Positions 2,544-58,421 of a stretch of 64,000 bases of DNA are shown piece by piece. Made by a program: the position numbers and the translations under genes. Every line of letters starts with the position of its first letter. Positions within the stretch are counted from its first letter, which is position 1. Under the pieces are notes generated by a model. That model worked only from the letters and a program-made list of their open reading frames with translations. It had not been told where the DNA came from and made no database searches. This stretch comes from an uncultured Gemmatimonadaceae bacterium (lineage in GTDB: Bacteria > Gemmatimonadota > Gemmatimonadetes > Gemmatimonadales > Gemmatimonadaceae), in NCBI GenBank assembly GCA_963829055.1, contig CAWHHI010000016.1, forward strand, positions 1 to 64,000, read 5' to 3'.

Positions 2544-3406
2544 CGCGCCTACTGTGCGCGATAGCTCCGGGCCGACTCCAAGAATGGAACCCCATGCCGG
2601 CGCAGCGCTCAATGATGCCTCCTTAAACATGCCACCTCCTTGTTCGCCGTTCGGCGAACGGCTGCACATTGCTTCTCTTGCTGGAAACCACTTCTGTCGC
2701 GCATTGCGCACATCGTCGGAATACAAAAGAGAGATGGGAGATCTGGAAGCGCTTCGATACTGAACAATGGTATTGGCGCTACTTTCGTATCGGTTGTCGC
2801 TTCGCCGTCGTGGTGGCTGCGCCTTCGGCAACCTGCACCGGTCTGCTCAACGAGGCGCAGCGCACGCCGGACCTTCGCTGCTTCGGCCCGGAGTTCGTCC
2901 GTCTGGCGGTCCTGGTAGATCTGCTTGCGGGTTTCGGCACGTGAACTCGAGAACGAGGTATTCGGTGAACCGACTCGCCGACACAGTACCGCGGCGGTGC
3001 GTCCCCATCCGCCGTGGCGAGCCGATTCGGTTACGCTCGTTAGGCGAGCGGCGGGGGTGCGGCAGCGGCGGAGAGTTCCCTCGAGCGGGCGGCTACGGCC
3101 AGAGCTACTTCGCGAGGAGTCGGCGCCGCCGGAGGATCGCTCCTTCAATGGCTCCAGGTCTTTCGCGTCGAAGCGGCACAATGTCGCGCGTGAACGCGTC
3201 GAGGTGCTTGCGGTCCATCCGCTCCACGAGCCCGCGCCAGCACGCGACGACGGGCGGCGCCGGCGACTTGTTATCGTTAGGCGTCGGGAGCAGCGGTCGG
3301 GGAACGTCGTCGACGGTCCCTCGCGGCGGGGAGCGATGGCGCCTGACCGAGACCTAGCTCGTCCCGTCGCGGCAATAAAGCCATTGGCGCACCTTGCGCG
3401 TACTCG

Positions 3407-4388
3407 TCATTCGGGGAGCTCGCGCCGGACATCTGTCGGTCGCTTGTCCGTGCGGAAGCCCTGTAACGATGGGTGCCGGATTTGCCCGTCGCCGGTCCAC
3501 TCGGCGGACTGCACGTCCGCCACGAGTCGCGGCTGCGACCCAGTGGGCGGTCGGCCCAGAGGCGAGGTGGGGCGGGATCAAATGGCGTGGGTCGACCTCG
3601 AGGCGTTGAGGAGCTCGCGGAGTCTGCGGCCGAATGCGTCGTTCCATCCGCGGCCGGTGCCGACTTCCCGGCGAACCGCAACGCGCCCGCCATCGTAGTA
3701 AGTGCGACTAGGATCGAGCCGACGCCGACGCGCGAGCGTTCGGGCTCGGTGAAGCCGCCGACGACGAACTCCTGGCGCCTAACGCACTTGGTCTTCTGCC
3801 AGTCAGAGAGCGAAGCCCGCCCGGTAGGGCGCCGTCCGGCACTTGCTGACGATCCCCTCCGCGCCGAGCCGGCACGCGTGGGCGAGCACCGTCGCGCCGG
3901 CGCGTCGAATGGGGCGTGTAGCGGCTGGTGCCCGCACGCCGGCCGACGAGCTTCTCCAAGCGGCGCTTTCGCTCCTCTAGCGGCATCGGCGTCAGGTCCT
4001 CGCCGTCGAGCGCGAGAAGGTCGAACGCGAAGTAGGCCAGGCCGCGCCGGTTCGCGCCGAGTTGCTGGCAGCAGCTGGAAACTCGAGCGTCCGCGCTCGT
4101 CGAGCACGACCACCTCGCCGTCCAGCGCCGCAGTTTTCGCGGGCAGCTCCGTCGCCGCCTCGACGATCTCGGGGAAGTCGGCCGTGTAGTCGGTCCCATT
4201 GCGGGAGATGATCCGCGCGTCTCGCGTCTTTCCGCGGCCCGCGATGAAGACGCCCATGCGGAGGCCGTCGAGCTTGATCTCGTGCACCCACCGGTCGCCG
4301 GTGGGCGGCTCGGCGACGAGTAAGGCCTTCTGTGGGGCATAATCCCACGCCGCGGGCGGACGCTCCTCGGCCTCGCGGGTGAGGGCAT
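3407..4388 (-). CDS. ligD: ATP-dependent DNA ligase, LigD ligase domain only (multiple frameshifts)
   Basis: WVHEIKLDG (motif I KxDG), LDGEVV, YFAFDLLALDGEDL, WQKTKC..QEFVVGGFT, IRHPSLQGFRTDK. Confidence 0.85.
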
Positions 4389-4390
4389 CG

Positions 4391-4702
4391 TTAGGCGTCG
4401 GACCCGCGACGGGCGCGGGATTCTAGACCTTGGGGTTTCGGCGCCGCACCAGGTCCCGACGCCGTCGGTTCGGCCTCGGCGAACAGGCAATGCAGCGCGC
4501 TGCGCTTACGCCAGTCGTCGCCGCCGACCCATCGCGCGACGCGCTCCTCGCCGTCGCGCTGCGAACGCGGATGACGAGGGCGAGGGTTCGGCCCGTCGAT
4601 CGCCGGCGAGACGACCTTGGTTTGCGCGACCTCCGAGACGTACCACACCCGGTGCTGGGAGTCGCGGTAGGTGACGCGTCGGGGTGTGCGCGTGCGGGCC
4701 AT
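4391..4702 (-). CDS. Small hypothetical protein
   Basis: MARTRTPRRVTYRDSQHRVWYVSEV...; candidate sigma-54 site upstream. Confidence 0.5.
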   Translation of the reverse strand: MARTRTPRRVTYRDSQHRVWYVSEVAQTKVVSPAIDGPNPRPRHPRSQRDGEERVARWVGGDDWRKRSALHCLFAEAEPTASGPGAAPKPQGLESRARRGSDA

Positions 4703-5330: not shown

Positions 5331-6762
5331 ATGCGCAACTACATCGCTCTCGCCCTCACGTCGCTTGCGGCGTGCACCAACGCCCCCGCGAAAGAGACGG
5401 CTGCCTCCACGCCCTCGGCCGTGCCAACTGTTCCAGTTCCGGCGATCGACGTCAACGAGGTCGACTCCCTCATCCAGCGCGTCGTCGCGGAGAAGCGACT
5501 CGTCGGAGTATCCGTGGGCGTGATGCAGGACGGGAAAGTCGTCCTCGCCAAAGGCTACGGGTTTCGATCGCTCGAACCGAAGCTGCCGGTGACGCCAACG
5601 ACCATGTTCGGCATCGGCTCCGTCACGAAGCAGTTCACGTGCAGCTCGGCCCTGCTGCTCGAGCAGGAGCGCAAGCTGTCTATGAGCGATCGCGTCGCGA
5701 AATACTTCCCGTCGGCGACCCGAGCGAACGACGTTACGCTCCTGGACCTCGGGCAGCACGTCTCGGGCTATCGGGACTATTACCCGCTCGACTTCGTGGT
5801 GCGAGAAATGGCGAAGCCGGAACCGACCGACACCGTCATCGCGCGTTATGCGACTCGCCCCCTCGACTTCGAGCCGGGATCGCGATCGGTCCTACAGCAA
5901 CACGAACTTCCTCATCCTCGGCAGAGCGATCGAGGCGGCATCGGGGAAATCGGTCGGTGAATTCATGAAGGAGCGGATCTTCACGCCGATCGGCATGACG
6001 CGTACCGCGTTCGATCGAATCCCCAACGATTCCAATACCGCGAAAGGCTACGCCTCGTACGCACTCGCCGATCCGACGCCCGTTGCACCCGAAGCGCAGG
6101 GATGGATCGGTGCCGCAGGTGCGATCTGGTCAACGCCGACCGACTTGCTTGCCTGGGATCTCGCGCTCATCAATGGCAAGGTGCTCAGTCCTGTCTCGTA
6201 CGCCAAGCTCACCACGCCGCGTGTGCTCACCGACGGGCGGCTGACCACCTACGGTTGCGGGCTCGGGGTTCAGAAGACGGGGGATGCGGTGATCCTCTCG
6301 CATGGCGGTGGGCTCGCCGGCATCGTGACGCAGAACATCGTTATTCCCGCGACGCGGTCAGGCATCGTCACGCTCGCGAACGCGGACTTTGCCGCGACTG
6401 GAGAGATCATCTCCGCGCTGATCGCCAAGCTCACCCCGCACGTCGACGTGCCCAAGATCGCCGGGCCAACCGCGCTCGAGGCCGCGAAGGCGTTCCTCGC
6501 GTCGGTCGAGCAGGGCAAGGTCGATCGATCGACGCTCGGCGATGACTTCAATGCGTTGCTGACCGACGAGCACCTCGCCAGGGATCGCGCCTCGATGGCC
6601 GCCCACGGCAAGGTCACCAATGTCGTCGTTAGGCAGCCGGTAGAGCGCGGCGGCATGGAGGTGGCGATCGTCGAGTACAGGGTCGGAAAGACGCTCGCGC
6701 GGACGGCTATGTATCGTTCGCCGGACGGGAAGATTCAGCAGTTCCTGATCAACCGACGGTAA
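5331..6762 (+). CDS. Serine hydrolase, beta-lactamase/AmpC-like lipoprotein (frameshift near 5885)
   Basis: Lipobox LAAC, SxxK (GSVTK), YSN, HGG. Confidence 0.9.
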
Positions 6763-6977
6763 GCTGGTGGGACTCAACCCTTCCTTGCTTTCCGGGCCGC
6801 GAGGACCGTCCGACGTGCTGACCGGGTTGCAATGACCCAACGCTTTAGGAAAGCGCGTTAGGCAGTCGCGCCAAGAAGGATTCCGCATCCCGGCGTTATT
6901 GGACGAACGCGTTGAAGAAGCAGTAGCGGGTATTGCACACAATGAGAACGGTTAGGCAACCACTTCGCGAGTCATCA

Positions 6978-8495
6978 ATGATGCTGGGATTTGACCGAAA
7001 CGCCTCACAGCTCGGCACGAACCGGCTGTGTCTTGGTGTGCTCCTCGTCTGTGCGGTCGGCGCGGCGTGTGCTCCACAGTCGCAACAATACGACCTCGTC
7101 ATCAACGGCGGCCGAGTCGTGATCGATCCGGAGACAAGGCTCGACGCGGTCAGAAGCGTCGGGATCGTTGGAGATCGCATCGCCCGGGTTTCGGCGCAGC
7201 CCCTCAAGGGCACAACGGTGATCAATGCGACGGGACTGGTCGTCAGCCCCGGATTCATCGACTTGCATCAGCACGACCAGAGTCCGGCCGCGTATCGGTT
7301 GAAGGCGCTGGACGGTGTCACGTCTGCGCTCGAGATGGAGAGCGGCGTGCCTGACTTTGCAAAATTCGTGGCGGTGCGTGAGGGAAAAGCGCTGATCAAC
7401 TATGGCGCCACTGTGAGCCAGGAAGCGGCGCGCGTGCTCGCCTTTGGGGACACGCTTGCGACAAGCGTGATGGGAGAAGCGGGATCGATCGACGATCCGC
7501 CATCGGGGCCAGCGACAAACAACGTTGCCAGCGACGAACAGATTGCGCGTCAGCTCGCGTTCCTCGACAGGGGCCTCACCGCCGGCGCGTTAGGCGTGGG
7601 GATGGGGCTGGAATACACGCCTGGCGCAACGCGGCTCGAGATCATCCGGATCTTCCAGGAGGCCGCGAAGTGGCATCGTCCGGTGTTTGTTCACATCCGG
7701 AGCGTCGGCGCGCTCGAGCCCGGGTCCAGTGTTGAGTCCGTCGGCGAAATGATCGCGGCGAGCGCGGTCTCCGGCGCGCCGGTTCACATCGTCCACATCA
7801 ACTCCAGCTGCATCCGATTCGTGCGCGACTGCCTGACAATGATCGAAGGGGCTCGCGCACGAGGGCTCGACATCACCACCGAGGCGTATCCGTATGGCGC
7901 GGGGATGACGAGCATCGCGTCGGCGCTGTTCAATCCCGGTTGGAGAGAGCGGCGGTCGATTGGCTATGATGCCATCGAGCTTCCCGAAACAGGCGAGCGT
8001 TTGACGCAGACGAGGTTCGATGCGCTGCACGCATCGGGCAAGGCGGTGTACGTCCTCATCCACATGAATCCGGACTCGATCGTCGCCATGGCAGCCACAT
8101 CGCCGCTCACAATGATCGCCAGCGACGGCCTGTCGAGCCACCCTCGTCAGGCCGGGACGTACTCGCGAGTACTTGCTCGTTATGTCCGAGAGGAAAAGTC
8201 GCTGTCGCTGATGAACGCGATTCGCGAAATGTCCCTGCTGCCGGCGCTGCGACTGGAAACGGTGACCGCCTCGGCACATCGTAAGGGCCGTCTTCAGGAA
8301 GGAGCAGATGCCGACATCGTGGTTTTCGATCCGGCAACAGTGGCAGACAAGGCGACGTACCGTGCCCCGCTTAGCCCAAGCGTCGGCATGAAGCACGTGC
8401 TCGTTAGGGGAACGCCGGTTGTACGGGACGGTCAGGTCGTCGACGGTGCAGCGCCCGGCAAAGCGATCACGGCCGACCTGCGAGCCAAACCATAG
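6978..8495 (+). CDS. N-acyl-D-amino-acid deacylase family amidohydrolase (lipoprotein)
   Basis: PGFIDLHQH, IASDG, HPR, GADADIVVFDP. Confidence 0.9.
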   Translation: MMLGFDRNASQLGTNRLCLGVLLVCAVGAACAPQSQQYDLVINGGRVVIDPETRLDAVRSVGIVGDRIARVSAQPLKGTTVINATGLVVSPGFIDLHQHDQSPAAYRLKALDGVTSALEMESGVPDFAKFVAVREGKALINYGATVSQEAARVLAFGDTLATSVMGEAGSIDDPPSGPATNNVASDEQIARQLAFLDRGLTAGALGVGMGLEYTPGATRLEIIRIFQEAAKWHRPVFVHIRSVGALEPGSSVESVGEMIAASAVSGAPVHIVHINSSCIRFVRDCLTMIEGARARGLDITTEAYPYGAGMTSIASALFNPGWRERRSIGYDAIELPETGERLTQTRFDALHASGKAVYVLIHMNPDSIVAMAATSPLTMIASDGLSSHPRQAGTYSRVLARYVREEKSLSLMNAIREMSLLPALRLETVTASAHRKGRLQEGADADIVVFDPATVADKATYRAPLSPSVGMKHVLVRGTPVVRDGQVVDGAAPGKAITADLRAKP

Positions 8496-9101: not shown

Positions 9102-9382
9102 CGCGATCTATCGTATACCACCGCACGACCGCGTCGATCTCGCCGCGCGTGCGGATCCTACCGTTAGGCGCCTTCCGCGAATGCCGAGGTCAACGTCGGA
9201 GCCGACCAGCTCGCATACCGCGCCACGGTACGGCGGACCTCGCCAGCCTCGAGCGGCCTGAGATCAGCGGCCTTCTCCGGATCGTCGAGGCGAGGAGCTG
9301 GCGCGCGTGGTGGCGCGACCACGCAGCCGTCCGGTCCAATCGTTAGGCTCCCAGCCGACAACTGCGGCGTGCGCGGGGCGCG

Positions 9383-9876: not shown

Positions 9877-9938
9877 CCCGAGGTCGGCCGACGGTCGCGC
9901 CTGAGGTCAGCGGTTCCGACGCCGCGCCGCCCCTGCCT

Positions 9939-9983
9939 AACGATCGGCCGCGTAACTCCTTGGGTTGCGCGGCCGATCGCGTT
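9939..9983. terminator. Strong hairpin between convergent genes
   Basis: CGATCGGCCGCG...CGCGGCCGATCG 12-bp perfect stem. Confidence 0.6.
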
Positions 9984-10145: not shown

Positions 10146-11014
10146 TTAGAGAGTCTGGAAGCCTGCCACGGCCGGCTGCGCGTCGACTTGCCGAACTGGC
10201 GCGCCAGCGGCATGAGGACCAGCATTCCAACAATGGCGACCACCGCGATCATGACGACCACTTTGGGATCGTCGAAGTTCTGACCGCCGACCACGAGCGC
10301 CGCGGCAATGTTCCGTTGCGCCGTGCCGAGGGCCAGCACGCTCTTCGCGTCGCGGGATCGACCCGCCAAGCAGCCATCCGACCGCGAGGCCCACCAGCAG
10401 AAACACGACGCTCGCCAGGATGCCTCGAGTTCCGAACAGGCTCACAATGTTTCGGGCGTTCGTTACCACGATCAGCACCATCATCATCGTTAGGCTCGCC
10501 GACGAGACGCGATTGAGCACCGGTGCCGCTCGGCCTGCGACGGCGGCCGCGCGAGCCCGAACTACGAGTCCGAAGAACAGGGGGAGCAGCATGAGCAGCA
10601 CGAGCGATCGAGCGATCTGCATCGGGTCGACCGAGACGCCCTGGAGCAGCAGCGGCATCACGACGAGGCATGTAGCCGACCGTGAGCACCATGAGAAGCA
10701 CCATCAAGCCAACGGAAAAGGCGAGATTGCCCTCTGCGACGCTTGCGAGCTTCGGAAGGAACGGCGCGCCGGCGGCCGCGCCGAGGATGATGCAGAGCCA
10801 CGCCAAGTGGCTGCGCGAGCTGAAGCACTCGCGCAATCAGGATCGCGGCGAGCGGCATCAAGACGAAGTTCGCCAGCACGGCCAGCGTGAGCAGCTTGCC
10901 GTTGCGCAACGGTGTGACGATCTCGCGCACGGTGAGGCTCAAGCCTACCGCGAGCATGCTCGACACCACGAAGGTGAGCAGGGCAATGGGAACGGCTTTG
11001 GCCAAGGCTTCCAA
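10146..11014 (-). CDS. Bile acid:sodium symporter (BASS) family transporter (frameshifted)
   Basis: SMLAVGL, LANFVLMP, AAGAPFLPKLA, LGTAQRNIAAAL. Confidence 0.85.
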
Positions 11015-11071
11015 GAGAACTCTCCAGAAATCGACGCGGTGAGTTCGGACCGTCGGTGACGACTGCGCGCG

Positions 11072-12137: not shown

Positions 12138-13083
12138 TCAGAACGTGAGTGAGCCGGAGATCTGCAGCGCGTAACCCTGAAAGGTCGATTTGTTGGCGAA
12201 CTCGTCGAAGTACTTGAGCCCGAGACTCGACTTGCGCGACGGGCAGGTTGATGTTGGCTGCGAACCCGATCGCATTGATGTCGTAGCGCGCGGACGATTG
12301 CTCCGGCGTGATCGCCGGACCGCTCTTGTCCGAGGTCTGTCGCTGCTCGTAGCCCACCACGCCGATCTGCAGGTCGACTTCCTTCGTCAGCGCCGACGGT
12401 GTGCGTGACGGAGTAGTCCAGGTTGAACGTGTCTCCCGGCCTAACGTCGGTGCCTTCCTGCGTTCCATGGACCTCGTACATCTCGAACGCGGAGATTGCG
12501 GTTCGCTTGTCGCTCGTTAGGTAGACGCTCTGTCCGGACGCGACCACGTTGGTCCAGTATCCGGAGCCGACGTTGTCGGATGCCCCGGCCGCGAATCTGC
12601 CGGTGGGGGCCAGAAAGCCGTAGATCGCCTTGAGCCCGACGCGAGTCTTCTCCCAGCCGAGAATGAGAGGCTGATAGTAGGAGTCGGCGAATCCTCCACC
12701 ACCGCTCACGGCACCGGTCGCGTCGGATGAGAGCGAGTTGTTCGCGAAGGGCAGCGTCGCGGAGGCGGCGTAGCGAGCGCCTCCGAGGATCGGCGTTCCG
12801 GCTGGCCCAGGCGAACGTGTTCATGTCCATGAGAACGGAGTTGCCGCCGGTGGCGAGCAACCTCACCGTCTGCGCCTCGCGATTCATCGCGCGCATAGAG
12901 GATGAAGAGATTCGTGTACGTCAAACCCGCCGCCGGAGTGGCGCCGGAGTTCGTGGCGCTCATGCCGAGCGGGTACACGCCTCTGTTCTGTGCCGACGCC
13001 GAGTCGCACACCGCGAACACGAGCGCCGCGATCCGCAGCGAACGGCTCGCTCGTCGAGTCACATGAGCGCTCGAACGATGCAT
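12138..13083 (-). CDS. SphA / MetA-pathway-of-phenol-degradation family outer-membrane channel (frameshifted)
   Basis: Signal peptide, YPLG, GFADSYYQPLILGW, LAPTGRF..NVGSGYW, C-terminal Phe (GSLTF). Confidence 0.8.
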
Positions 13084-15730: not shown

Positions 15731-15762
15731 TCTGACCGGAACGTTAGGCGATCGCCCCGGAG

Positions 15763-43619: not shown

Positions 43620-44982
43620 ATGCTCCGCGCCGCAATCGCCGTTGGGTTGTCGGCAGTGCTCATGTGGGCACCATCGCGATTACAGGCGCAGGGTCGCACG
43701 ATACACGGTTCTGTGCTCGCGCCGCAGGCCGACTCCGCGGCGATGGCCCGGTCGGCGTACGGCCGCGCCGTGGCCGCCTATCGGAAGAATGACATTCCCA
43801 CGGCGCGGCTCGAGATGAAACGCGCGGCGGACGCATGGCCAACGCAGGGAGTTTACCTCGAGAACGCGCTCGCGCTCGCGGCGGTGGCGCACGACACGGC
43901 GGATGCGACGCGATGGCTCGAGCGGCTGGCCGATCTTGGACTCGGCAACGCGGTCGCCGGCGATTCGATGTTTCGCGCCTTCACCGGTGCACCGGCGTTC
44001 GACGCCGCGGCCAAGCGACACACCGCCGCGACGGCAGCCGTGGCCAGGAGTCGCGTTAGGCTCACGGTGCCGGATTCGATGCTGCACCCGGAAGGCGTGA
44101 CGTTCGATGCCCGCACGGGTCGGTGGTTCGTGGGGAGCATCCGCCAGCGGCGCGTCGTGGTTGTCGAGAGAGACGGAAACACGCGTGATTTCGTGCAAGC
44201 CGCGTCCGATGGCATTGGCGGCGTGTTCGGTATGGCGGTGGATGACGCGCATCGCACGCTCTGGGTGGCGACGACGTCACTGCCGCGGATGCGGGGGTTC
44301 ACCGCCAGTGACAGTGGACACGTTGGTGTGTACGCCTACGACCTGGACACCGGACGATTGCGTCGAAGCGCGTGGGCGCCGCGTGACTCGTCGACGGCCC
44401 ACACATTCGGCGACCTCGTCGTCGCGCCGAACGGCGACGTGTACGTGTCGGACAGCCAGGCGCCATGGATCTTCAGGCTTCCTGTTGGCGGCGACTCACT
44501 GGTGCGGTTCATGACGCATCCGCTGTTTCGCTCGCTCCAGGGGATGGCGATCACGCCGGACGGAGCGTGCGATGTACGCGGCGGACTATTCGCACGGGCT
44601 TCTGCGCATCGATCTGCGCTCGCGTTCTGCGGTACTGCTTCGTGCGCCGCGACGTGTGACGATGCTCGGCGTGGATGGGTTGTACTTGCATCGCGGTGTT
44701 CTGATCGGGATTCAGAATGGTGTCACGCCAGCCCGTGTCGCGCGGTTCTGTCTCGATGCGGACGGCCGCGGTGTGCGCCGAGTCGATGTGATCGATAGGA
44801 ATCCGGCGTTGGCGGACGAGCCGACGCTGGGTGTGGTGGTGGGCGATTCGCTGTTCTACGTCGCGACGAGTCAGTGGGACAAGTTCGACGACACGGGCGC
44901 GCGAGTCGCGGGCTCGGTGCTGCGTCCCGCGACGGTGCTAGGCGTGGGGCTCGAGACCGCCGATGCCTGTCGTGCGCGGTAG
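43620..44982 (+). CDS. Secreted protein: helical N-domain + SMP-30/gluconolactonase-like beta-propeller (frameshift near 44570)
   Basis: PEGVTFD, FGDLVVAPNGDVYVSDS, SLQGMA, GVDGL, IQNG. Confidence 0.8.
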
Positions 44983-49026: not shown

Positions 49027-49356
49027 ATGGGTCTGCTCGACAATCTTTTCGACAAAGACAAGGACCACGACAAGGACAAGCCCAAGGCGGACTTCTCGGA
49101 CGTGGTCGCTGGCGGCTCGTCGACCGCGCCGCGCGCCGACGTTCCGAATGTGTCGTCGTCAAGCACCGCCGCGCCTAACGTCACCGACCGGGAGCGCACG
49201 TACACCGTGGTTGCCGGCGATACGCTCTCCAAGATCGCGAAGCACGAATACGGCGACGCGTCCAAGTGGCATCGGATCTACGAAGCGAACAAGGACACGA
49301 TCAAGAACCCGGACCTCATCTATCCGGGACAGACGTTCAAGATTCCTGGCGCCTGA
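49027..49356 (+). CDS. LysM domain protein
   Basis: YTVVAGDTLSKIAK.EYG...W.RIYEAN...IKNPDLIYPGQ. Confidence 0.93.
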   Translation: MGLLDNLFDKDKDHDKDKPKADFSDVVAGGSSTAPRADVPNVSSSSTAAPNVTDRERTYTVVAGDTLSKIAKHEYGDASKWHRIYEANKDTIKNPDLIYPGQTFKIPGA

Positions 49357-49843: not shown

Positions 49844-49881
49844 GGCGGCCGCTTCACAGCGCCATCGTCGTACTCGAGCGC

Positions 49882-50987
49882 CTAACGCCGCCGCCGGTCA
49901 TCACTCGGCGGCGGCTTTCGCTTACCATACGTGACGGTGAGCAGCGCGAGCAGCTGGACCGTATCGGGCCCGTTCCATGCCCGCTCGTATCGCGCTGACG
50001 CCCGACGCCACCACATCGCCGACCGTCGAATCGGGAACGACGATGAACGGTGACGGCGAGCGAAACGTCGTGTAGCCCTCGAGCCGGCGAGCCACGTCGG
50101 CGTCGATTGCAGTCCGACCAGTTGGAACTGCGACGCGCTCGCAGCACGCTCGTGGCCGAGTCGACGAACGCCGTTCCCATCCAGTCGACGGTCGAGACAC
50201 TCAGGGCTGGCTCGAAGTCGAGGCGTAACACGCGCCCGTCGAGCAGTGTCTCGACGCCCCGCACCGCGAAGCAGTGGTGCTCCCAGAACACCGAGTCGGC
50301 AAGCGCCGAAAGGAATAGCAGCGGCACCGAGAACCCATTCGGCGGCGATCGATGACGCCGCCGGGCCGGTATCGTTCGCCCCACCCGCGTCGACGTCTCG
50401 TCCTCGGTGCCTTCGCGTACGTCGCGAGCACTGCCATTGCGATTGAAGTGGATCGTTCGCCGCTTCTGTTTGATACGAAACGGATACGCCTTGCGGAACG
50501 ACTCGTAACGCTCGGCGCTCATTGCGAAGCTGCCCCAGCGCGACGGCCGCCAGTGCTCTGGTCGCGGCGTCGCCGTCCGCGGCGCACTTGCGGCGCGCGC
50601 GAGTGGCCACGTCGGGAGAGCGTACAGGCGACGCGCGAGAGCGTGAACGTCGCAGTGTCGACAGCGCCTCGGTGGCGTCGGCAGGACGCATGAGCTCGCG
50701 ATCCTCGAACTGGAAGCCGAGCTGACGCACACGGAGCCGTAGCCGGCCGCGATCGGGCCAGCGATACGCGCTTCGCCGTCGCAGTTCGTGAACCGGTGCG
50801 AGGACGCGTCGAGGTCGATGATCTCTGCGTTAGGCAACGGTTGCCCGCTCGTGGCTTCCACGACTCGCACGAGCAGAACGGCGCTCTCCGTAACGCTAGC
50901 GGCGTGGCGCGATGCAGTCACGCTCGGATACGGCTCGAGGATGCCAACGCCGACTAATGCGATGACTGCGAACAGCCGTATGGTCAT
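49882..50987 (-). CDS. Carboxypeptidase-regulatory-like domain secreted protein (many frameshifts)
   Basis: VVEATSGQPLPNAEI, RQLGF, FWEHHCF, LDFEP. Confidence 0.65.
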
Positions 50988-51576: not shown

Positions 51577-53020
51577 ATGACCGTCACCACGGCCGCACCC
51601 GCGGGAGCCGTGACGCGTCAACTCGCCGGAGTTTCTCGCCGACGGCGTCGCTACGACGACCTTCCGCCGGACGTCCTCCACGAGACGCTATCGCGCCACG
51701 CTCGACTGGTTCGGGTCGGCGCTGGCCGGATCGCTCGAGCCACCCGCACGTTTCGCCCAGGGCGTCGCGCGCAGTCTCGGCGCGTTCGGACGACGCGACC
51801 ATGTTCGGCGCCGGACGCGCATCGGCCGCCGCTGCCGCGTTCGCGAACGGCGTGGCGTCGCACATCCTCGAGCTCGACGACGTCCACAAAGGGCTCGACG
51901 CTCCACGCCGCCGCGCCGGTCATCCCCGCCGCGTTAGCGGTCGCCGAACGCGAGCGAGCGAGCGGGCGCGCGTTCTCGCTGGCGGTCGCGGTCGGCTACG
52001 ACGCCGCGCTTGCGCATCGGCGAAGCGGTCAATCCGAGTCATTACCGCTACTGGCATCCGACGGGCACCGTGGCGACGTTCGGCGCGGCCGCGGCGGCCG
52101 GCTCGCTGCTCGGGCTCACGCGCCGCGCAGATGCTCGACGCGCTCGGCAGCGCCGGCACGCAGGCGGCGGGGCTGTGGGAGTTCAACGCCGACGGCGCGA
52201 TGAGCAAGCATCTCCATCCCGGCAAGGCGGCGTTCAACGGCGATTCTCGCCGCCGATCTCGCGCGCGCAGGCTTCACCGGCGCAGCACGGATTCTCGAAG
52301 GCGAGCGCGGATTCTTCCGCGCGACCGCGTCCGCGTGCTGACGCGACGCGAATTACGGACGCGCTCGGGCGATCGGTGGAAGATCACGGAGAACTGCTAC
52401 AAGCTGCACTCGTGCTGCGGGCACACGCACACCGCCATCGATGTCGCGCTCGATATCCGCGCCGAGCGCCGGTGGTCGGCGCGTGACGCGCTCGACGCGA
52501 TCGTCGCCGCGTGGACGTCGAGACGTACGGGCCGGGCTACGAGATCGTGAGCGATCCGAACCCGAGCACGCCGTATCGGGCGAAGTTCAGCATCGCGTAC
52601 TGCGTCGCTGCGGCGCTCGCGGAGGGAGCGCGTGAACCTCGAGCAGTTCTGCTCCGAGCGCTTCGGCGACGATGGCGTCGTCGAACCGGCGATCGCCGCG
52701 CTGCTTCCGCGCATTCACGTGAGCGTCGCGCGATGATCTGACCGCGAAGTACCCCGCGACGTGGCCGACGCGCGTTGCGGTCACGCTCGAACGACGGCAC
52801 GACGCTGCGTGGCGCCAGCGACTATCCGCGCGGCAATCCCGAGAATCCCGTGTCCACCGACACGCTCGAGGAGAAGTTCGTCGAGCTCGTCGCGCCGCGG
52901 CTGGGCGATGCGTTCGCGCAGCGTGCGCTGGCGACCGTCCGGTCGCTCCACGATAGCTGCCGGACGTCCGCGACGCTGTTCGCGGAGCTGTTCACGACCA
53001 GCCGTCGGCCTAACGAATGA
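51577..53020 (+). CDS. MmgE/PrpD family protein (many frameshifts)
   Basis: NGVASHILELDDVH, WHPTGT, KHLHPG, KLHSCCGHTH, KFSI, PRGNPENP. Confidence 0.88.
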
Positions 53021-54192: not shown

Positions 54193-55382
54193 GCGCGACT
54201 CGAGCGCGGGCCTCGAGGCGAACGACGCGCTGCCGCTGGCGGGCATCCGCGTCGTCGCGCTCGAGCAGGCCGTCGCCGCGCCGTTCGCCTCGCGGCAACT
54301 CGCGGACATGGGCGCCGACGTCATCAAGGTCGAGCGGCCCGACGGCGGCGATTCGGCGCGCGCGTACGACGGCGCGTTGAACGGAACGTCTGCGTACTTC
54401 GCGTGGCTCAATCGCGGGAAGCGAAGCGTCGTGCTCGATCTCAAGCGAGCCGAGCGATCACGACGTGTGCGCGCAGCTGCTCGCGCGCGCCGATGTGTTC
54501 GTTCACAACCTCGCGCCGGGCGCGGTGGAGCGACTCGGGCTTCGGGTACGACGCGCTTGCCGAGCGAAACTCGCGGCTCGTGTGGTGCGGGATCTCCGGG
54601 TACGGACCGGACGGCCCGCAGCGCGACAAGAAGGCGTACGACATGCTCGTGCAGGCGGAGTCGGGCGTCGTGTCGCTCACCGGGAGCGCGGATGCGCCGG
54701 CGAAGGTCGGCATCTCGATCGCCGACATCTGCGTCGGGGCTGTACGCGTATTCGTCCGTGCTCGCCGCGCTGTTGCGACGCGGGACGCACGGGCAAGGGC
54801 GCGCGCATCGACATCTCGATGCTCGAGTGTCTGACGGAGTGGATGACGCCGGCGCTGTACGTCTGGCACGGGACGGGTCAGGTCCCGGCACGTGTCGGCG
54901 TGCGCCACAACATGATCGTGCCGTACGGCGCGTACGAGTGCGCTGACGGCGCGGTGCTGTTCGCGGTGCAGACGCAGCGCGAGTGGCGGCGGTTCTGTGC
55001 CGACGTCGATGCATAACGCGGCGCTCGCCGACGACGTGCGCTTCGCGACGAACGCGGAGTCGACTGCAAGCATCGCGTGGAGCTGGAGTCGATGATCGAG
55101 AATCGTCTGCGCCGCATTCCCGCGCGCGCAGGTCAATGCGCTTGCTCGCAGGCCGCCGATATACCCACGGGGGCACGTGAACGATGTGCCGGCGGTGATG
55201 GCGCACGCGCAACTCGCGGCGCGCGATCGCGTTGGACGACCGTCGGCGCGCCGGGAGGATCGATTCCGGCGCTGCTGCCGCCACACAATCTTGGCGGCGC
55301 CTCGCCGCGGATGGGTGACGTGCCAGCGTTAGGCGCTCATACGGCGGAGGTGATCGCGGAGCTTGCTCGTGACCGACGCTGA
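54189..55382 (+). CDS. CaiB/BaiF class III CoA-transferase (frameshifted; start approximate)
   Basis: PLAGIRVVALEQAVAAPFASRQLADMGADVIKVE, LNRGKRS, KAYD, PALGAHT. Confidence 0.9.
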
Positions 55383-55923: not shown

Positions 55924-56154
55924 GCGGTCGAGCGGCAGGTTGTCGGCGCATGGCACCGAGCGGCAGCGACGGACCGCTGCGACGGCATTGCAGCCGGTCT
56001 GGCCACGAGTACATGAGCGGAACGGCTCGCCTCGTCGTTCGTGCTTGCTCCGTCGGTGCCACGCGCAGTTCGATCGGCCTCGCAGTCCGACGTGCCCTGC
56101 GCGGTCCGCGCTCTGCGCCGTTAGGCGTCGGCACCGCTGCTCCAGCGAGACGTC

Positions 56155-57456
56155 TTAGAACCGCTCGATCACCCGCTCGACGGCTTCGATCGTCGCGTCG
56201 ATCTCGACCGGCGGATTCGCGAACTCCGGCGGCGGCGACAGCTCCTGGTGATAGCGGAGCAGGGCACCCGGGTCCTTCAGGATGTGCCCCGTCAGCACCG
56301 CGACCACGCGATCCGACGAGCGGATCGTGCCCTCCCTAACGAGTCGCCGTACGCCCGCGACGCTCGCCGCGCTTGCCGGCTCACAGCCCACGCCAGCGGC
56401 GTCCACGACTGCCTTCGCGTCGAGAATCTCGGCGTCGGTCACCGACGTTACCACACCGTCTGTGAACCGAATCGCATTCACGCCGCGGTCGAACGACGCC
56501 GGGTCACCAATGCGGATCGCGGTCGCGACCGTCTCCGCTTTCACCTTGTGGCGCGTGGCGAACGCGTCGCGGAACGACTGCGCGAACGGCGACGCGCCCT
56601 CCGCCTGAATCGCGGCGATGCGCGGGACGCGCGTGATCAGGCCCAGCTCGTGCGCTTCACGCAGCGCTTTTCCAAACGCTGCCGTGTTGCCGAGGTTACC
56701 CGCGGGGAGGACCAGCCAGTCCGGCGCGTCCCAGCCCAGTTGCTCGAGCGTCTCGAGGACGATCGTCTTCTGCCCCTCGACGCGGAATGGGTTGATCGAG
56801 TTGAGCAGATAGATCCCGAGACGCGTGCTCGCCTGCTGCACGAGTGACAGGCAGGCGTCGAAGTCGCCTTTCACCATCAACGTCCGCGCGCCGTACGCGA
56901 GCGACTGCGCCAGCTTACCTAACGCGACCTGCCCGGCCGGCACGAACACGAGCGCCGGAATCCCGGCCTGCGCGGCGTACGAAGCGAGCGATGCCGACGT
57001 GTTGCCGGTGGACGCACACGCGACCGCGCGCGCGCCAATGCGTCGCGCTTGCGTCACGCCCACAGTCATGCCGCGATCCTTGAAGGAGCCGGTCGGGTTG
57101 TGCCCCTCGTGCTTGAGCTGCAACCCATCGACACCAGCCCACGCCGCCACACGCGCTCGCGACAGGAGCGGCGTGTTGCCCTCGGGGTGCGAGACGATGT
57201 GATCGCCGGCGCCAGGCAGGACCATCTCGCGATACCGCCATACGCCCGAACCGCCGTCCGTGCCGTTTATCCGTCGAGCCGAGAACACGCCGCGGAGTTG
57301 AACTCCGCGGACGCTGGGCGGCGCGTGCACGACCTCGAGCAGGCCGCCGCACGACGCGCACGTGGGCGACGCGTCCGTATCCGGAAACTGATGGCCGCAC
57401 ACGGCACAGCGCTGATAGCTCGCGGCCTGCGCCGCAACATCCGTAAGGCCCGTCAT
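56155..57456 (-). CDS. thrC: Threonine synthase
   Basis: N-terminal CxxC..CxxC, EGNTPL, NPTGSFKDRG, ASTGNT, GNLGN, TGHILKD. Confidence 0.96.
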   Translation of the reverse strand: MTGLTDVAAQAASYQRCAVCGHQFPDTDASPTCASCGGLLEVVHAPPSVRGVQLRGVFSARRINGTDGGSGVWRYREMVLPGAGDHIVSHPEGNTPLLSRARVAAWAGVDGLQLKHEGHNPTGSFKDRGMTVGVTQARRIGARAVACASTGNTSASLASYAAQAGIPALVFVPAGQVALGKLAQSLAYGARTLMVKGDFDACLSLVQQASTRLGIYLLNSINPFRVEGQKTIVLETLEQLGWDAPDWLVLPAGNLGNTAAFGKALREAHELGLITRVPRIAAIQAEGASPFAQSFRDAFATRHKVKAETVATAIRIGDPASFDRGVNAIRFTDGVVTSVTDAEILDAKAVVDAAGVGCEPASAASVAGVRRLVREGTIRSSDRVVAVLTGHILKDPGALLRYHQELSPPPEFANPPVEIDATIEAVERVIERF

Positions 57457-58421
57457 GACTCGATCTCCACTCGCGCACCGACCCGATCCACTTCACACAC
57501 GCGCACACTCGACGTGATGGCCTGTGCCGCGAACGCCGCCTCCATCGCCACCGCCACTGCCTGCGCGCACGCGAGGTCGCCAACGAGCGCGAACGTCGTC
57601 GGGCCGGCGCCGGAGATCGACGCGCCTAACGCCCCGGCGGCGAGCGCCGCCGCCTTCGCCTCGCGGAACCCCGGAATGAGCGGCGCCCGCGCCGGCTCGG
57701 CGATGCGGTCGTCGATCGCGCGCCCGAGGAGCGCGAGGTCGCCTGACGCGAGCGCCGCGACGATCGCACCGACCTGCGCCGCCTGATGCAGCGCGATGCT
57801 TCGTTCGACCATCGCCGGCAGCACGGAGCGCGCGTCCGCCGTGCGAAGTCGCTGCGACGGGTGCGCGAGCACGATGAACAATGACGGCGGTACCGGCAGC
57901 TGCACGACGTCGATCGGATCGATCGACCTGATGAGGCAGATGCCGCCGAGCAGCGACGGCGCGAGGTTGTCGAGGTGCCGGCCAGCGACAGTCGCTTCGG
58001 CGAGCAGACACGCTTCGAGCAGGGCGTCCGTCGCGAGCGGCGAGCCGCACAGCACGTTCACGGCGACCGCGCCAGCCACCGCCGATGCCGCGCTACCGCC
58101 CTGGCCCGCGGAGAGCGGCAGGTCCTTCTTCACCGTCAGCGCGATACCGGGCGCCGGCGGGCATCGGCCACCGCCTAACGCCTGACGCAGCACCGCGGAC
58201 GCCGCGATCGCCGACGAGTGCAGCGCCGGATCCGTAGGCAACTCGGGGTGTCCGGCATTGCGCACCACGACGCCTTCCTCGTCGCACCACTCGGCCGTCA
58301 CGCTATCGCCAACGCCGGTGACGGCGCAGCCTAGCACGTCGAGCCCGGGCCCGAGGTTGCCTATGCCGCCCGGGGCGTAGGCGAGCACGCGCTTCGGGAA
58401 AGCGCCCGGCGTCTGGCTCAC
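57453..58421 (-). CDS. thrB: Homoserine kinase
   Basis: NLGPGLD, LPLSAGQGGSAAS, HLDN, ISGAGPT. Confidence 0.95.
   Translation of the reverse strand: MSQTPGAFPKRVLAYAPGGIGNLGPGLDVLGCAVTGVGDSVTAEWCDEEGVVVRNAGHPELPTDPALHSSAIAASAVLRQALGGGRCPPAPGIALTVKKDLPLSAGQGGSAASAVAGAVAVNVLCGSPLATDALLEACLLAEATVAGRHLDNLAPSLLGGICLIRSIDPIDVVQLPVPPSLFIVLAHPSQRLRTADARSVLPAMVERSIALHQAAQVGAIVAALASGDLALLGRAIDDRIAEPARAPLIPGFREAKAAALAAGALGASISGAGPTTFALVGDLACAQAVAVAMEAAFAAQAITSSVRVCEVDRVGARVEIES

What the first reader, a model, noticed from the sequence alone, without database searches (positions are those of the whole stretch)
3038..58180. Highly iterated non-palindromic octamer CGTTAGGC/GCCTAACG: candidate undescribed genome signal (uptake-sequence/HIP1/Chi-like)
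Seen: at least 46 exact copies. CGTTAGGC at 3038, 3275, 4389, 6627, 6856, 7588, 9162, 9341, 10488, 13616, 15742, 17979, 18303, 19733, 20747, 20952, 21811, 22788, 23027, 27950, 28575, 34897, 36677, 37843, 38527, 44054, 50828, 55327, 56119. GCCTAACG at 3777, 9935, 12439, 21068, 24011, 26766, 29084, 30260, 32225, 35692, 45045, 45674, 49173, 49880, 53008, 57624, 58173. About 20 variants mostly differ only at an outer base (e.g. 2337, 6950, 8402, 12515, 15060, 15898, 15922, 16727, 16832, 20727, 24839, 33362, 42389, 54167, 56334). A hand zero-order estimate at about 68% GC gives only 2-3 expected copies on both strands, so the excess is roughly 20-fold, about one site per kb with variants. Established: this density and dispersal resemble Neisseria DUS, Pasteurellaceae USS and cyanobacterial HIP1. 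Both orientations occur (29:17), so polarity is weaker than expected for Chi/KOPS. I know of no description of this word. Inference: a sequence-specific factor (DNA-uptake receptor, methyltransferase-linked repair bias, nucleoid protein or recombinase) drives its accumulation.
Basis: partly seen in the sequence, partly recalled or inferred. Interest (0 to 1): 0.9.

Follow-up and report, generated by a model that had tools for sequence, protein, structure and literature searches.

The report
Genome-wide CGTTAGGC self-word in Gemmatimonadaceae
This soil bacterium has written one eight-letter DNA word about once every 1.5 kb through genes and spacers alike, against its own codon habits, much as Neisseria and Haemophilus tag their DNA with uptake sequences, and the word is spelled like the core recombination site of integron gene cassettes.

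Summary
All 46 copies lie at the stated coordinates (1.17 expected). The assembly, a 7.78 Mb Gemmatimonadaceae genome from a metagenome, holds 5004 copies. It is the most over-represented octamer, 19-49x over Markov orders 0-3.

- **A bare word:** flanks carry no information, and density is equal in coding and intergenic DNA.
- **Against codon usage:** 3296 copies in called genes versus 152 after synonymous shuffling; 46% of TTA codons lie in it.
- **Strand and spacing:** only 55% of copies lie on the leading strand. Copies avoid each other within about 200 bp.
- **Turnover:** sites are more conserved between species than control octamers, and change by substitution.
- **Distribution:** 55 of 201 family genomes (18 of 68 genera) are rich. 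None of 119 genomes from other families is. An rpoB tree needs 7-10 transitions.
- **Integron link:** in word-poor relatives the word marks the R' core of attC sites in cassette arrays. The integrase is not required.

Best reading: an uptake-sequence-like signal kept by molecular drive, reader unknown (about 0.4). No C5 methylase or Vsr was found, and there is no Chi-like or KOPS-like polarity. Earlier notes of this scan reported the same word in four other genomes.

The parts
3038..3045 (+). CGTTAGGC copy
3275..3282 (+). CGTTAGGC copy
3777..3784 (-). CGTTAGGC copy
4389..4396 (+). CGTTAGGC copy
6627..6634 (+). CGTTAGGC copy; G001 has CGTCAGGC at the aligned place
6856..6863 (+). CGTTAGGC copy
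7588..7595 (+). CGTTAGGC copy; kept in G001 and G002
9162..9169 (+). CGTTAGGC copy
9341..9348 (+). CGTTAGGC copy
9935..9942 (-). CGTTAGGC copy
10488..10495 (+). CGTTAGGC copy; kept in G005
12439..12446 (-). CGTTAGGC copy; kept in G005
13616..13623 (+). CGTTAGGC copy; kept in G001
15742..15749 (+). CGTTAGGC copy
17979..17986 (+). CGTTAGGC copy
18303..18310 (+). CGTTAGGC copy
19733..19740 (+). CGTTAGGC copy; G003 and G004 have CGTCAGGC
20747..20754 (+). CGTTAGGC copy
20952..20959 (+). CGTTAGGC copy
21068..21075 (-). CGTTAGGC copy
21811..21818 (+). CGTTAGGC copy
22788..22795 (+). CGTTAGGC copy
23027..23034 (+). CGTTAGGC copy
24011..24018 (-). CGTTAGGC copy
26766..26773 (-). CGTTAGGC copy
27950..27957 (+). 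CGTTAGGC copy
28575..28582 (+). CGTTAGGC copy
29084..29091 (-). CGTTAGGC copy
30260..30267 (-). CGTTAGGC copy
32225..32232 (-). CGTTAGGC copy
34897..34904 (+). CGTTAGGC copy
35692..35699 (-). CGTTAGGC copy
36677..36684 (+). CGTTAGGC copy
37843..37850 (+). CGTTAGGC copy
38527..38534 (+). CGTTAGGC copy
44054..44061 (+). CGTTAGGC copy; kept in G001, CGTTAGGT in G005
45045..45052 (-). CGTTAGGC copy
45674..45681 (-). CGTTAGGC copy; not kept in G001 or G005
49173..49180 (-). CGTTAGGC copy; kept in G001 and G002, not in G004
49880..49887 (-). CGTTAGGC copy
50828..50835 (+). CGTTAGGC copy
53008..53015 (-). CGTTAGGC copy; GCCTGACG in G003, gapped in three others
55327..55334 (+). CGTTAGGC copy; kept in all 5 species compared
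56119..56126 (+). CGTTAGGC copy
57624..57631 (-). CGTTAGGC copy inside the homoserine kinase-like gene (57453-58421, minus). It reads xCG-TTA-GGC. G003 and G004 share it. G001, G002 and G005 have CGCTCGGC or CCCTCGGC, that is the common Leu codon CTC in place of TTA, with no indel.
58173..58180 (-). CGTTAGGC copy in the same gene; kept in all 5 species compared

Best explanation
CGTTAGGC is a lineage-specific 'self word'. It is a bare, non-palindromic octamer that a DNA-level directional process keeps at about one copy per 1.5 kb everywhere in the chromosome, in both orientations and in every reading frame that tolerates it.

The most likely mechanism is that of the DNA uptake sequences of Neisseriaceae (DUS) and Pasteurellaceae (USS). 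In that model a component of the DNA-uptake or recombination route prefers fragments that carry the word. Alleles with the word therefore replace alleles without it (molecular drive). Because one copy per fragment is enough, a second copy close by brings no gain.

Shown here:
- the enrichment and its independence from coding;
- strand balance;
- a deficit of close pairs;
- partial conservation and turnover by point substitution;
- restriction to one family, with several transitions.

Inferred, not shown: that uptake or recombination bias is the driver, and who reads the word.

The word equals the R-box core of the integron attC sites of the same order.
For: 1. **Magnitude.** The genome has 5004 copies against 131 (Markov order 1), 102 (order 2) and 257 (order 3) expected. 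It is the top octamer by z-score.

2. **Not a repeat element.** Positions outside the 8-mer carry at most 0.13 bit.

3. **Coding-blind.**
   - 1342 of 5004 copies (27%) lie in the 24% of the genome that my crude gene calls leave intergenic.
   - All four stop-free frames are used: xCG-TTA-GGC 1316, C-GTT-AGG-C 447, xGC-CTA-ACG 601, G-CCT-AAC-G 913.
   - 355 copies supply a stop codon.
   - Called genes hold 3296 copies against 152 after synonymous shuffling and 72 after codon-order shuffling. 1320 of 2892 TTA codons sit in the word.

4. **Strand balance.** 2547:2457 genome-wide. On C16 the two arms around a terminus-like switch have 158:111 and 187:209, so 55% of copies lie on the leading strand. 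Intergenic copies show no orientation relative to flanking genes (428/420/248/245).

5. **Spacing.** Pair density relative to Poisson is 0.19 at 0-50 bp, 0.25 at 50-100, 0.39 at 100-150, 0.52 at 150-200, 0.77 at 200-300, and about 1 beyond 500 bp. The deficit is the same for both relative orientations. A purely per-site mutational bias would not obviously give this.

6. **One-mismatch neighbours at inner positions are depleted** (0.17-0.44x at positions 2 and 7). Outer variants are enriched: CGTTAGGT 13x, TGTTAGGC 10x, CGTTAGGG 5x.

7. **Orthologous places in 5 species of the genus** (about 79% DNA identity). 20 of 36 aligned cells keep the word, against 21.3% of 82,386 control octamers. In alignments at or below 85% identity it is 15 of 30 against 18.2%. 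In 16 cells only the relative has the word and in 11 only the window does, and all differences are substitutions.

8. **Lineage pattern.**
   - 55 of 201 Gemmatimonadaceae genomes (18 of 68 genera) have at least 3x the reversed-word control. 119 have less than 0.25x.
   - 0 of 119 genomes of 11 other families reach 3x.
   - G021 prefers a 3' extension: GTTAGGCA in 33 of 54 copies, which is dialect-like.

9. **Blocks of apparently foreign cellular DNA in the same assembly lack the word** (C6:5-55 kb, C6:592-623 kb, C11:0-47 kb).

10. **ComEC, a ComEA-type domain, a secretin and DprA are encoded**.

11. **Published USS/DUS properties match.** Passages of PMC1939737 report 1471 and 1965 copies, 65% and 35% inside ORFs, non-palindromic words, no orientation bias, and 'significant even spacing'.
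Against: - No uptake assay exists, and I found no report of natural transformation in this phylum. One search listed 6 papers holding both terms, none relevant by title or abstract.
- The competence genes found are equally present in all 21 genomes searched, word-rich or word-poor. They say nothing about specificity.
- No ComP-type receptor was found, but that search rang in no control genome either, so it is uninformative.
- The length scale of the spacing deficit (about 200 bp) is shorter than typical uptake or recombination tracts. It would also fit a protein footprint.
- Unlike the neisserial DUS, close inverted pairs are rare: 13 of the 40 pairs closer than 60 bp.
- The identity with the integron core site is unexplained by this model.
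- Gene calls were my own crude codon-usage caller (76% of the genome called coding), so frame counts are approximate.
- The conservation sample is small (13 of 46 window sites, 36 non-independent cells).
Confidence: 0.4

Rival explanations
1. The word is a cis-acting chromosomal binding site under selection. A nucleoid-associated, condensin-loading, repair or recombination protein needs one site every kilobase or so and covers about 200 bp. Selection for function, rather than transfer bias, keeps the copies.
For: - The close-pair deficit has a footprint-like scale of about 200 bp and does not depend on orientation.
- Density is even across coding and intergenic DNA.
- Copies are partly conserved at orthologous places.
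- The family-wide bimodal distribution (119 genomes below 0.25x, 55 at or above 3x) fits presence or absence of one protein.
Against: - From my own knowledge, no known nucleoid protein needs an exact 8-mer thousands of times.
- Most relatives (128 of 201 below 0.5x) live without the word.
- Density varies 10-fold within single genera (g19 at one per 2.4 to 18.5 kb; g49 with four rich genomes and one poor). That is odd for an essential architecture.
- Turnover is high: 27 of the aligned cells differ in presence.
Confidence: 0.2
2. The word is integron-linked. It is the R-box of attC/attI sites, and the dispersed copies reflect the integron integrase or a related tyrosine recombinase. They could be landing pads for cassettes (attG-like), decoys, or a by-product of recombinase-associated repair.
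For: - In word-poor relatives most copies sit in one-strand runs, each at the 3' end of a conserved repeat of about 60-100 nt that is followed by a short same-strand ORF.
- Two G015 repeats fold as R''(GCCTAAC)-L''...L'-R'(GTTAGGC) hairpins, z -5.0 and -4.2. The two G023 repeats tested gave z -2.4 and -0.8.
- The runs lie next to intI matches (G015:C80, G013:C26, G013:C83).
- CGTTAGGC is the commonest R' spelling in those arrays.
- G000 has an intI at C20:208041-208958, with attC-like sites ending in CGTTAGGC and CGTTATGC nearby.
- GTTRRRY is the published core site (passages of PMC3053210).
Against: - IntI matches (E <= 1e-50) occur in 40 of 55 rich, 11 of 18 middle and 77 of 128 poor genomes.
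- 15 rich genomes have no IntI match, among them 4 of the 5 genomes of the densest genus. The caveat is that these are metagenome assemblies, 80-100% complete.
- The commonest alternative attC spelling, CGTTAGAC, is 0.2x depleted genome-wide.
- Dispersed copies have uninformative flanks.
- Inverted pairs are scarce rather than enriched at attC-like distances of 50-150 bp: 46 observed against about 161 expected.
- Dispersed copies have no orientation relative to genes.
- They arise by substitution inside conserved genes, not by insertion.
Confidence: 0.12
3. The word is a methyltransferase- or repair-linked bias, as proposed for cyanobacterial HIP1. An enzyme marks the word, and a biased repair step converts near-matches into matches.
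For: - Inner one-mismatch neighbours are depleted and the exact word enriched.
- G000 encodes an MmeI/Eco57I-type adenine methylase of about 1075 aa with an NPPW motif, next to an SNF2 helicase (C8:73.5-78.3 kb). From my own knowledge, enzymes of this type read asymmetric sites.
- G000 also has a partial D12-class match.
Against: - No C5 methylase (PF00145) and no Vsr (PF03852) were found in any of the 7 genomes of the genus. Those matches occur only in word-poor genera.
- G000 has no PF02384 or PF01555 match (the genome is 86% complete).
- The large methylase has orthologues in 19 of 21 genomes, rich and poor alike.
- A per-site conversion would not obviously produce the close-pair deficit.
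- The word is not a palindrome.
Confidence: 0.1
4. The word is a polar recombination or segregation signal, like Chi for the AddAB-type nuclease or KOPS for FtsK.
For: - An AddAB-like pair (UvrD helicase plus two PD-(D/E)XK nuclease domains) lies at C15:10-16 kb.
- There is a small excess on the leading strand (55% on C16).
- In 200 kb of G010, 19 of 25 copies lie on one strand.
Against: - A 55% leading-strand share is close to what the 54:46 sense-strand preference and the gene-strand bias would give by themselves.
- A 19-49-fold excess built from rare codons is far beyond Chi, whose E. coli word is made of common codons (my own knowledge).
- No RecC was found.
- Most relatives lack the word.
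Confidence: 0.05

Closest known systems
DNA uptake sequences: USS of Pasteurellaceae and DUS of Neisseriaceae
   Same: - A short non-palindromic word, thousands of copies, about one per 1-1.5 kb.
- Present in both orientations without replication polarity.
- Found inside genes and between them.
- More evenly spaced than chance.
- Lineage-restricted, with variant spellings.

The published properties come from passages of PMC1939737; the properties here come.
   Different: - A different phylum, and only 8 letters long.
- No uptake bias has been shown and no receptor is known.
- Close inverted pairs are rare, unlike the DUS.
- The trait is patchy within one family, needing 7-10 transitions on an rpoB tree.
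- The word equals an integron core site.
Integron attC/attI core site GTTRRRY (R box)
   Same: Letters 2-8 of the word are a perfect GTTRRRY. In related genomes the full octamer is the usual R' end of attC sites in cassette arrays.
   Different: - The dispersed copies have no attC hairpin, no partner R'' and no cassette.
- They show no link to intI.
- Their tolerated variants differ from those of attC sites.
HIP1 (GCGATCGC) of cyanobacteria
   Same: A hyper-abundant octamer in coding and non-coding DNA. It is kept at orthologous places and restricted to certain lineages (my own knowledge of HIP1; no paper was read on it here).
   Different: HIP1 is a palindrome and has been tied to methyltransferases. 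Here the word is asymmetric, and no C5 methylase or Vsr was found in the genus.
Chi and KOPS
   Same: Over-represented octamers read by DNA-translocating machines. An AddAB-like nuclease and FtsK are encoded.
   Different: Those words are strongly co-oriented with replication and only modestly enriched. Here 55% of copies lie on the leading strand and the excess is 19-49-fold.

Membership tests
DNA uptake sequence (DUS/USS) | Short specific word hyper-abundant across the whole genome | tested here: met
   5004 copies in 7.78 Mb; the top octamer by z-score at Markov orders 1 and 3.
DNA uptake sequence (DUS/USS) | Both orientations, no replication polarity | tested here: met
   2547:2457 genome-wide; 55% on the leading strand on C16.
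DNA uptake sequence (DUS/USS) | Present inside genes as well as between them, overriding codon choice | tested here: met
   3296 copies in called genes against 152 after synonymous shuffling.
DNA uptake sequence (DUS/USS) | Spacing more even than chance | tested here: met
   Pair density is 0.19-0.52x below 200 bp. The overall coefficient of variation is 1.03 because of a few long gaps.
DNA uptake sequence (DUS/USS) | Lineage-specific, with dialects | tested here: inconclusive
   Restricted to one family and patchy within it. One lineage (G021) prefers a 3' AC extension and one (G010) also enriches CGTTTGGC. No systematic dialect survey was done.
DNA uptake sequence (DUS/USS) | Competence machinery encoded | tested here: met
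   ComEC in 21 of 21 genomes and a ComEA-type HHH_3 domain in 21 of 21; a secretin and DprA in G000. These do not discriminate between rich and poor genomes.
DNA uptake sequence (DUS/USS) | Preferential uptake of DNA carrying the word | not testable with these tools
   Needs a cultivated strain and an uptake assay.
DNA uptake sequence (DUS/USS) | Dedicated receptor (ComP-type minor pilin in Neisseria) | tested here: inconclusive
   PF16732 had no match in G000, but it rang in none of the 14 control genomes either.
Integron attC site | GTTRRRY core | tested here: met
   GTTAGGC fits GTTRRRY (for the consensus).
Integron attC site | Imperfect hairpin R''-L''...L'-R' of 57-141 nt, one per cassette, all on one strand, next to intI | tested here: not met
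   Met for the arrays in relatives, but not for the dispersed copies. Their flanks are uninformative. Inverted partners at 50-150 bp are scarce. Orientation relative to genes is random. Only about 5 attC-like sites were seen in G000.
HIP1-type highly iterated palindrome | Palindromic word | tested here: not met
   The reverse complement of CGTTAGGC is GCCTAACG.
HIP1-type highly iterated palindrome | Cognate methyltransferase in the genomes that carry it | tested here: inconclusive
   No PF00145, PF02384 or PF01555 match in G000. One MmeI/Eco57I-type enzyme is present, but it also occurs in word-poor relatives. Methylation itself could not be tested.
Chi / KOPS | Strong co-orientation with replication | tested here: not met
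   158:111 and 187:209 on the two arms of C16.
REP/MITE or other repeat element | Conserved sequence beyond the core; intergenic location | tested here: not met
   Flanks carry at most 0.13 bit, and about two thirds of copies lie inside called genes.

The most novel reading that the evidence does not exclude
The word is the integron R-box put to a second use. In this reading, several Gemmatimonadaceae lineages read the same core site both when they exchange chromosomal DNA and when they recruit gene cassettes. Cassette arrays, with one word per 0.4-2 kb all on one strand, would then be privileged substrates for uptake or capture. The whole chromosome of a rich lineage would be tagged in the currency of the integron. 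That would couple natural gene transfer and the integron system mechanistically. It could also bear on the unsolved question of how chromosomal genes become cassettes.
Probability: 0.12. Interest if true: 0.95.

Novelty: new variant of a known kind. Interest (0 to 1): 0.75.

Why it matters
Words of this kind with an identified uptake function are, to my knowledge, known from only two proteobacterial families. A third, independent case would matter for several reasons.

- **It broadens the phenomenon.** This case is in a barely cultivated soil phylum. It would show that word-based recognition of kindred DNA is more widespread, and would hint at frequent gene exchange in soil Gemmatimonadaceae.
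One family holds 55 rich and 128 poor genomes, with 7-10 transitions between the two states.
- **It raises a new, testable link.** The spelling matches the integron core site, so a connection between chromosomal tagging and cassette recruitment can be tested.
- **It has a practical use.** The word is a cheap marker for binning and for spotting chimeric contigs in metagenome assemblies of this family. The word-free blocks at contig ends of this assembly illustrate that.

Tried and rejected
1. **Repeat element or MITE.** Rejected: flanks carry no information.

2. **Codon or dipeptide artefact.** Rejected by the synonymous and codon-order shuffles and by equal intergenic density.

3. **Assembly or polishing artefact.** Rejected. 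The word is hyper-abundant in 55 genomes of the sample and absent from blocks of other cellular DNA in the same assembly.

4. **'Genus-specific' distribution.** This was my first reading, from 21 relatives. The 201-genome survey corrected it.

5. **Apparent one-strand runs in the match lists of G021, G061, G151 and G114.** For G021 this proved to be an effect of how the list is cut: the fetched 200 kb holds 26 forward and 28 reverse copies. The other three were not checked. The one-strand runs in G023, G022, G015 and G013 are real and are cassette arrays.

6. **A stand-alone IntI N-terminal domain as reader (C4:2862-3170).** It is a truncated remnant followed by stop codons, in a stretch with no clear coding signal.

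7. **The MmeI/Eco57I-type methylase as a discriminating gene.** It is present in 19 of 21 genomes.

8. **Vsr and C5 methylase.** Not found in the genus.

9. **A second 'dialect' word in L017 (AGCTGTTAG).** It is a local 7-bp tandem repeat.

10. **Word-free blocks as prophage or plasmid.** The 62 ORFs scanned encode ordinary cellular functions, apart from one weak D5_N (primase-like) match. Four of the five C6 housekeeping proteins tested have a divergent second copy (47-60% identity) on C16. A chimeric join or a large import from another bacterium is more likely.

11. **First rpoB tree.** Five rows were translated on the wrong strand. It was redone with the strands given by the search, and only one search is used.

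12. **Rfam scan of the window.** No match at gathering thresholds.

13. **Literature.** No paper describes the word as a genome signal among the 20 of 478 listed for the strings. No paper holds both Gemmatimonad and 'uptake sequence'. The library lacks most subscription journals.

Full report
**1. Observation**

The pattern search finds 46 exact copies of CGTTAGGC in the window. Dinucleotide-preserving shuffles give 1.17 on average and never more than 4. However, the window holds 70 one-mismatch matches in all. Only 19 differ at an outer letter; the rest are common G+C-rich words. G+C is 64-70% along the window.

**2. Whole genome**

The window is the first 64 kb of contig C16 of a 7.78 Mb, 20-contig assembly (85.9% complete, 3.95% contaminated). 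Every contig carries the word: 5004 copies in total, 2547 forward and 2457 reverse.

| Markov order | Expected copies |
|---|---|
| 0 | 297 |
| 1 | 131 |
| 2 | 102 |
| 3 | 257 |

It is the most over-represented of all octamers at orders 1 and 3, and the next words in the ranking are its own overlaps. Higher orders 'explain' it only because its sub-words are themselves made of it: 89% of GTTAGGC and 78% of CGTTAGG lie in the full word. Twenty positions on either side carry at most 0.13 bit. This is a bare 8-mer, not part of a repeat element.

**3. Organism**

Relatives of the window's threonine synthase are Gemmatimonadaceae/Gemmatimonadota genomes from metagenomes, the closest at 82-84% protein identity. 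The window's genes are ordinary chromosomal ones: peptidases, dehydrogenases, and an aspartokinase-homoserine dehydrogenase, a GHMP-family (homoserine kinase-like) kinase and a threonine synthase at 56-61 kb. Rfam finds nothing in the window.

**4. Relation to coding**

With my own crude codon-usage gene caller (7001 genes, 76% of the genome), 1342 copies are intergenic: 27% of copies in 24% of the genome. A further 372 overlap a gene end. The rest use all four stop-free readings:

| Reading | Copies |
|---|---|
| xCG-TTA-GGC | 1316 |
| G-CCT-AAC-G | 913 |
| xGC-CTA-ACG | 601 |
| C-GTT-AGG-C | 447 |

- TTA is 1.7% and CTA 2.1% of Leu codons; AGG is 3.8% of Arg codons.
- 1320 of 2892 TTA codons lie in the word.
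- Called genes hold 3296 copies. Shuffling synonymous codons within each gene leaves 135-174 (mean 152), and shuffling codon order leaves 63-93 (mean 72).
- 355 copies supply the gene's TAG or TAA.
- Intergenic copies have no preferred orientation towards flanking gene starts or ends (428/420/248/245).

The force is therefore at the DNA level and blind to coding.

**5. Polarity**

C16 shows a terminus-like switch of GC skew and of gene strand near 550 kb. The left arm has 158 forward and 111 reverse copies, the right arm 187 and 209. That puts 55% on the leading strand. The word is on the sense strand in 54% of genic copies. With the strong gene-strand bias of the two arms, that accounts for most of the skew. 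This is not Chi-like or KOPS-like.

**6. Spacing**

The mean gap is 1529 bp. Close pairs are scarce relative to a Poisson expectation:

| Distance (bp) | Pair density vs Poisson |
|---|---|
| 0-50 | 0.19 |
| 50-100 | 0.25 |
| 100-150 | 0.39 |
| 150-200 | 0.52 |
| 200-300 | 0.77 |
| 300-500 | about 0.9 |
| beyond 500 | 1.0 |

The deficit is the same for both relative orientations. Of 40 pairs closer than 60 bp, only 13 are inverted.

Three long word-free blocks lie at contig ends: C6:5.4-55 kb, C6:592-623 kb and C11:0-47 kb.
- Apart from one weak D5_N (primase-like) match, they encode ordinary cellular genes.
- Four of the five C6 housekeeping proteins tested (FtsK, DAHP synthase, M17 peptidase, TrpG) have a second, 47-60% identical copy on C16; GreA has none.
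- They are probably DNA of another bacterium, either a chimeric join or a large import.
- They serve as an internal control that the word is not made by the assembly.

**7. Variants**

| Class | Variant | Ratio to Markov order 1 |
|---|---|---|
| Outer position, enriched | CGTTAGGT | 13x |
| Outer position, enriched | TGTTAGGC | 10x |
| Outer position, enriched | CGTTAGGG | 5x |
| Inner position, enriched | CGTTATGC | 4.4x |
| Position 2, depleted | all three changes | 0.17-0.26x |
| Position 7, depleted | all three changes | 0.20-0.44x |
| Position 6, G>A, depleted | CGTTAAGC | 0.27x |

Near-misses being drained into the exact word is what any directional process predicts.

**8. Orthologous places**

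Five other species of the genus are about 79% identical in DNA to the window's conserved genes. After keeping one alignment per genome and position, 13 of the 46 sites are aligned in at least one species, giving 36 cells.
- 20 cells keep the word and 5 are gapped.
- Of 82,386 control octamers, 21.3% are identical.
- In alignments at or below 85% identity the figures are 15 of 30 against 18.2%.
- In 16 cells only the relative has the word; in 11 only the window has it.
- The differences are substitutions. In the homoserine kinase-like gene, for example, the word's TTA stands where three species have the common CTC.

The cells are few and not independent.

**9. Distribution**

My first sample of 21 relatives suggested a genus trait. 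A sample of 201 genomes of the family (68 genera) corrects that, using the reversed word as control.
- 55 genomes in 18 genera have at least 3x the control, 24 have at least 10x, and 119 have less than 0.25x.
- The densest genus has one copy per 0.75-0.86 kb.
- Strand shares in rich genomes are 0.47-0.53.
- Density varies inside genera: g19 ranges from 0.8x to 6x, and g49 has four genomes at 12-16x and one at 0.3x.
- Outside the family, 0 of 119 genomes from 11 families reach 3x; the highest is 2.5x.
- In 200 kb of one other rich genome (G021) the word is again the top-ranked word and prefers a 3' extension. In G010, CGTTTGGC is enriched alongside it.

On an rpoB tree of 61 rows (IQ-TREE quick search, SH-aLRT support only), the rich/poor label needs 10 changes. 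Well-supported branches force at least 9, and shuffled labels need 18. With stricter classes (at least 3x against less than 0.6x) it needs 7. The largest rich group holds 13 rich rows of 11 genera. This is a single-gene tree. It shows clustering with several gains or losses, but not their direction.

Three genomes in the family tallies (G026, G048, G094) and two in the phylum tally (G256, G283) are flagged unpublished. All count as word-poor rows, and no other claim rests on them.

**10. The integron connection**

In word-poor relatives most copies are bunched on one strand.
- G023:C1 has 29 copies in 43 kb, all on the - strand, out of 54 in that genome. Similar runs occur in G022, G015 and G013.
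- Each such copy ends a conserved repeat and is followed by a short ORF on the same strand.
- In G015 the two repeats tested fold as R''(GCCTAAC)-L''...L'-R'(GTTAGGC) hairpins, z -5.0 and -4.2. The two G023 repeats tested were weaker, z -2.4 and -0.8.
- Runs lie beside integron-integrase matches.

These are integron cassette arrays, and the octamer is the usual spelling of the attC R' end. The commonest alternative spelling there is CGTTAGAC. The published core consensus is GTTRRRY (passages of PMC3053210), and integrons are on record for Gemmatimonadota (passage of PMC8618304). G000 itself has an intI (C20:208041-208958, 265.7 bits against a cut-off of 265) with attC-like sites nearby, plus an intI remnant on C4.

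The integrase is not the keeper of the dispersed word.
- IntI matches occur in 40 of 55 rich, 11 of 18 middle and 77 of 128 poor genomes.
- 15 rich genomes lack a match, including 4 of the 5 genomes of the densest genus.
- CGTTAGAC is depleted genome-wide.
- The dispersed copies have no attC anatomy.

The identical spelling is unlikely to be chance, but I noticed it after the fact and its cause is open.

**11. Candidate readers**

- ComEC and a ComEA-type domain are in all 21 genomes searched. G000 also has a secretin and DprA.
- A ComP-type receptor search was uninformative.
- No Vsr and no C5 methylase were found in the 7 genomes of the genus.
- G000 has no PF02384 or PF01555 match. It has a partial D12-class match.
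- G000 also has one MmeI/Eco57I-type methylase next to an SNF2 helicase. Its orthologue is in 19 of 21 genomes, rich or poor.
- RecC was not found. An AddAB-like pair is present.
- None of these tracks the trait.

**12. Reading**

The anatomy matches uptake sequences point by point, where it can be tested. It fails the tests for Chi/KOPS, HIP1, attC membership and repeat elements. The mechanism (biased uptake or recombination giving molecular drive) is inferred, not shown. A protein-footprint explanation of the 200-bp exclusion zone and an integron-related reader remain open.

Earlier notes of this scan describe the same word, and in two of them the integron match, in four other genomes. I reached the integron link from the sequence before reading them. 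They are AI notes, not independent evidence.

- the codon-level null models;
- the pair-correlation curve;
- the variant spectrum compared with attC variants;
- the 201-genome and phylum surveys;
- the rpoB tree;
- the test showing no association with IntI.

Noticed in passing
L072-L074 (G023:C1:1398001-1448225), L075-L076 (G015:C95:1-30000), L077, L078 (G022), L079 (G013:C3): These are large chromosomal integron cassette arrays in word-poor Gemmatimonadales. The attC type is homogeneous within each genome but differs between genomes, and G+C is lower (61-64.5%) than the roughly 68% seen in other loci of G022 and G023. The G023 array holds at least 42 attC-like sites in 50 kb.
   Followed up: partly
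G000 contigs C6:5440-55037, C6:591808-623330, C11:1-46789: These word-free blocks at contig ends encode ordinary cellular genes. Four of the five C6 proteins tested have divergent second copies on C16. The blocks are probably chimeric joins or large imports from another bacterium. The word could serve as a check on binning.
   Followed up: partly
G000 C16 about 550 kb (outside the window): GC skew and gene strand switch sign here, as at a replication terminus. A Xer-type recombinase match lies at C16:540795-541592.
   Followed up: no
window 5318-8537, 10147-12604, 13124-15049: These stretches are 85-94% identical to other species of the genus, whereas conserved genes elsewhere in the window are about 79% identical. 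This suggests recent exchange between species.
   Followed up: no
G000 C8:73551-78317 (L126:5551-10317): An MmeI/Eco57I-type adenine methylase of about 1075 aa with an adjacent SNF2 helicase. It has orthologues in 19 of 21 genomes across the order, which is unusually vertical for a restriction-type enzyme. In G000 it is split by frame breaks.
   Followed up: partly
G000 C6:21577-22801 (chorismate synthase), C15:10336-16049 (AddAB-like), C8:73551-76758, C19:48873-51350 (rpoB match starts at model position 308): Several conserved genes are split or truncated in this assembly. This points to indel errors, so the gene calls and frame counts here are approximate.
   Followed up: no
G000 C4:2862-3170: A remnant of an integron integrase (N-terminal 104 residues, then stop codons), in a stretch without a clear coding signal.
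   Followed up: yes
L100-L109 (G010:C1:1-200000): CGTTTGGC (48 copies against 7.9 expected) is enriched alongside CGTTAGGC (25 against 3.5). 19 of the 25 CGTTAGGC copies are on the strand with positive GC skew. This may be a weaker, more polar variant of the signal.
   Followed up: no
L017:2652-2751: A tandem array of a 7-bp unit (AGCTGTTAG / AGCTGATAG in overlapping register) in a Gemmatimonadales genome from a metagenome.
   Followed up: yes
window 16866-18902, 35935-38735, 61083-63833 and others: The window is rich in secreted-type peptidases (S9, two S10, M14) and beta-lactamase-fold proteins. I saw nothing unusual in them.
   Followed up: no
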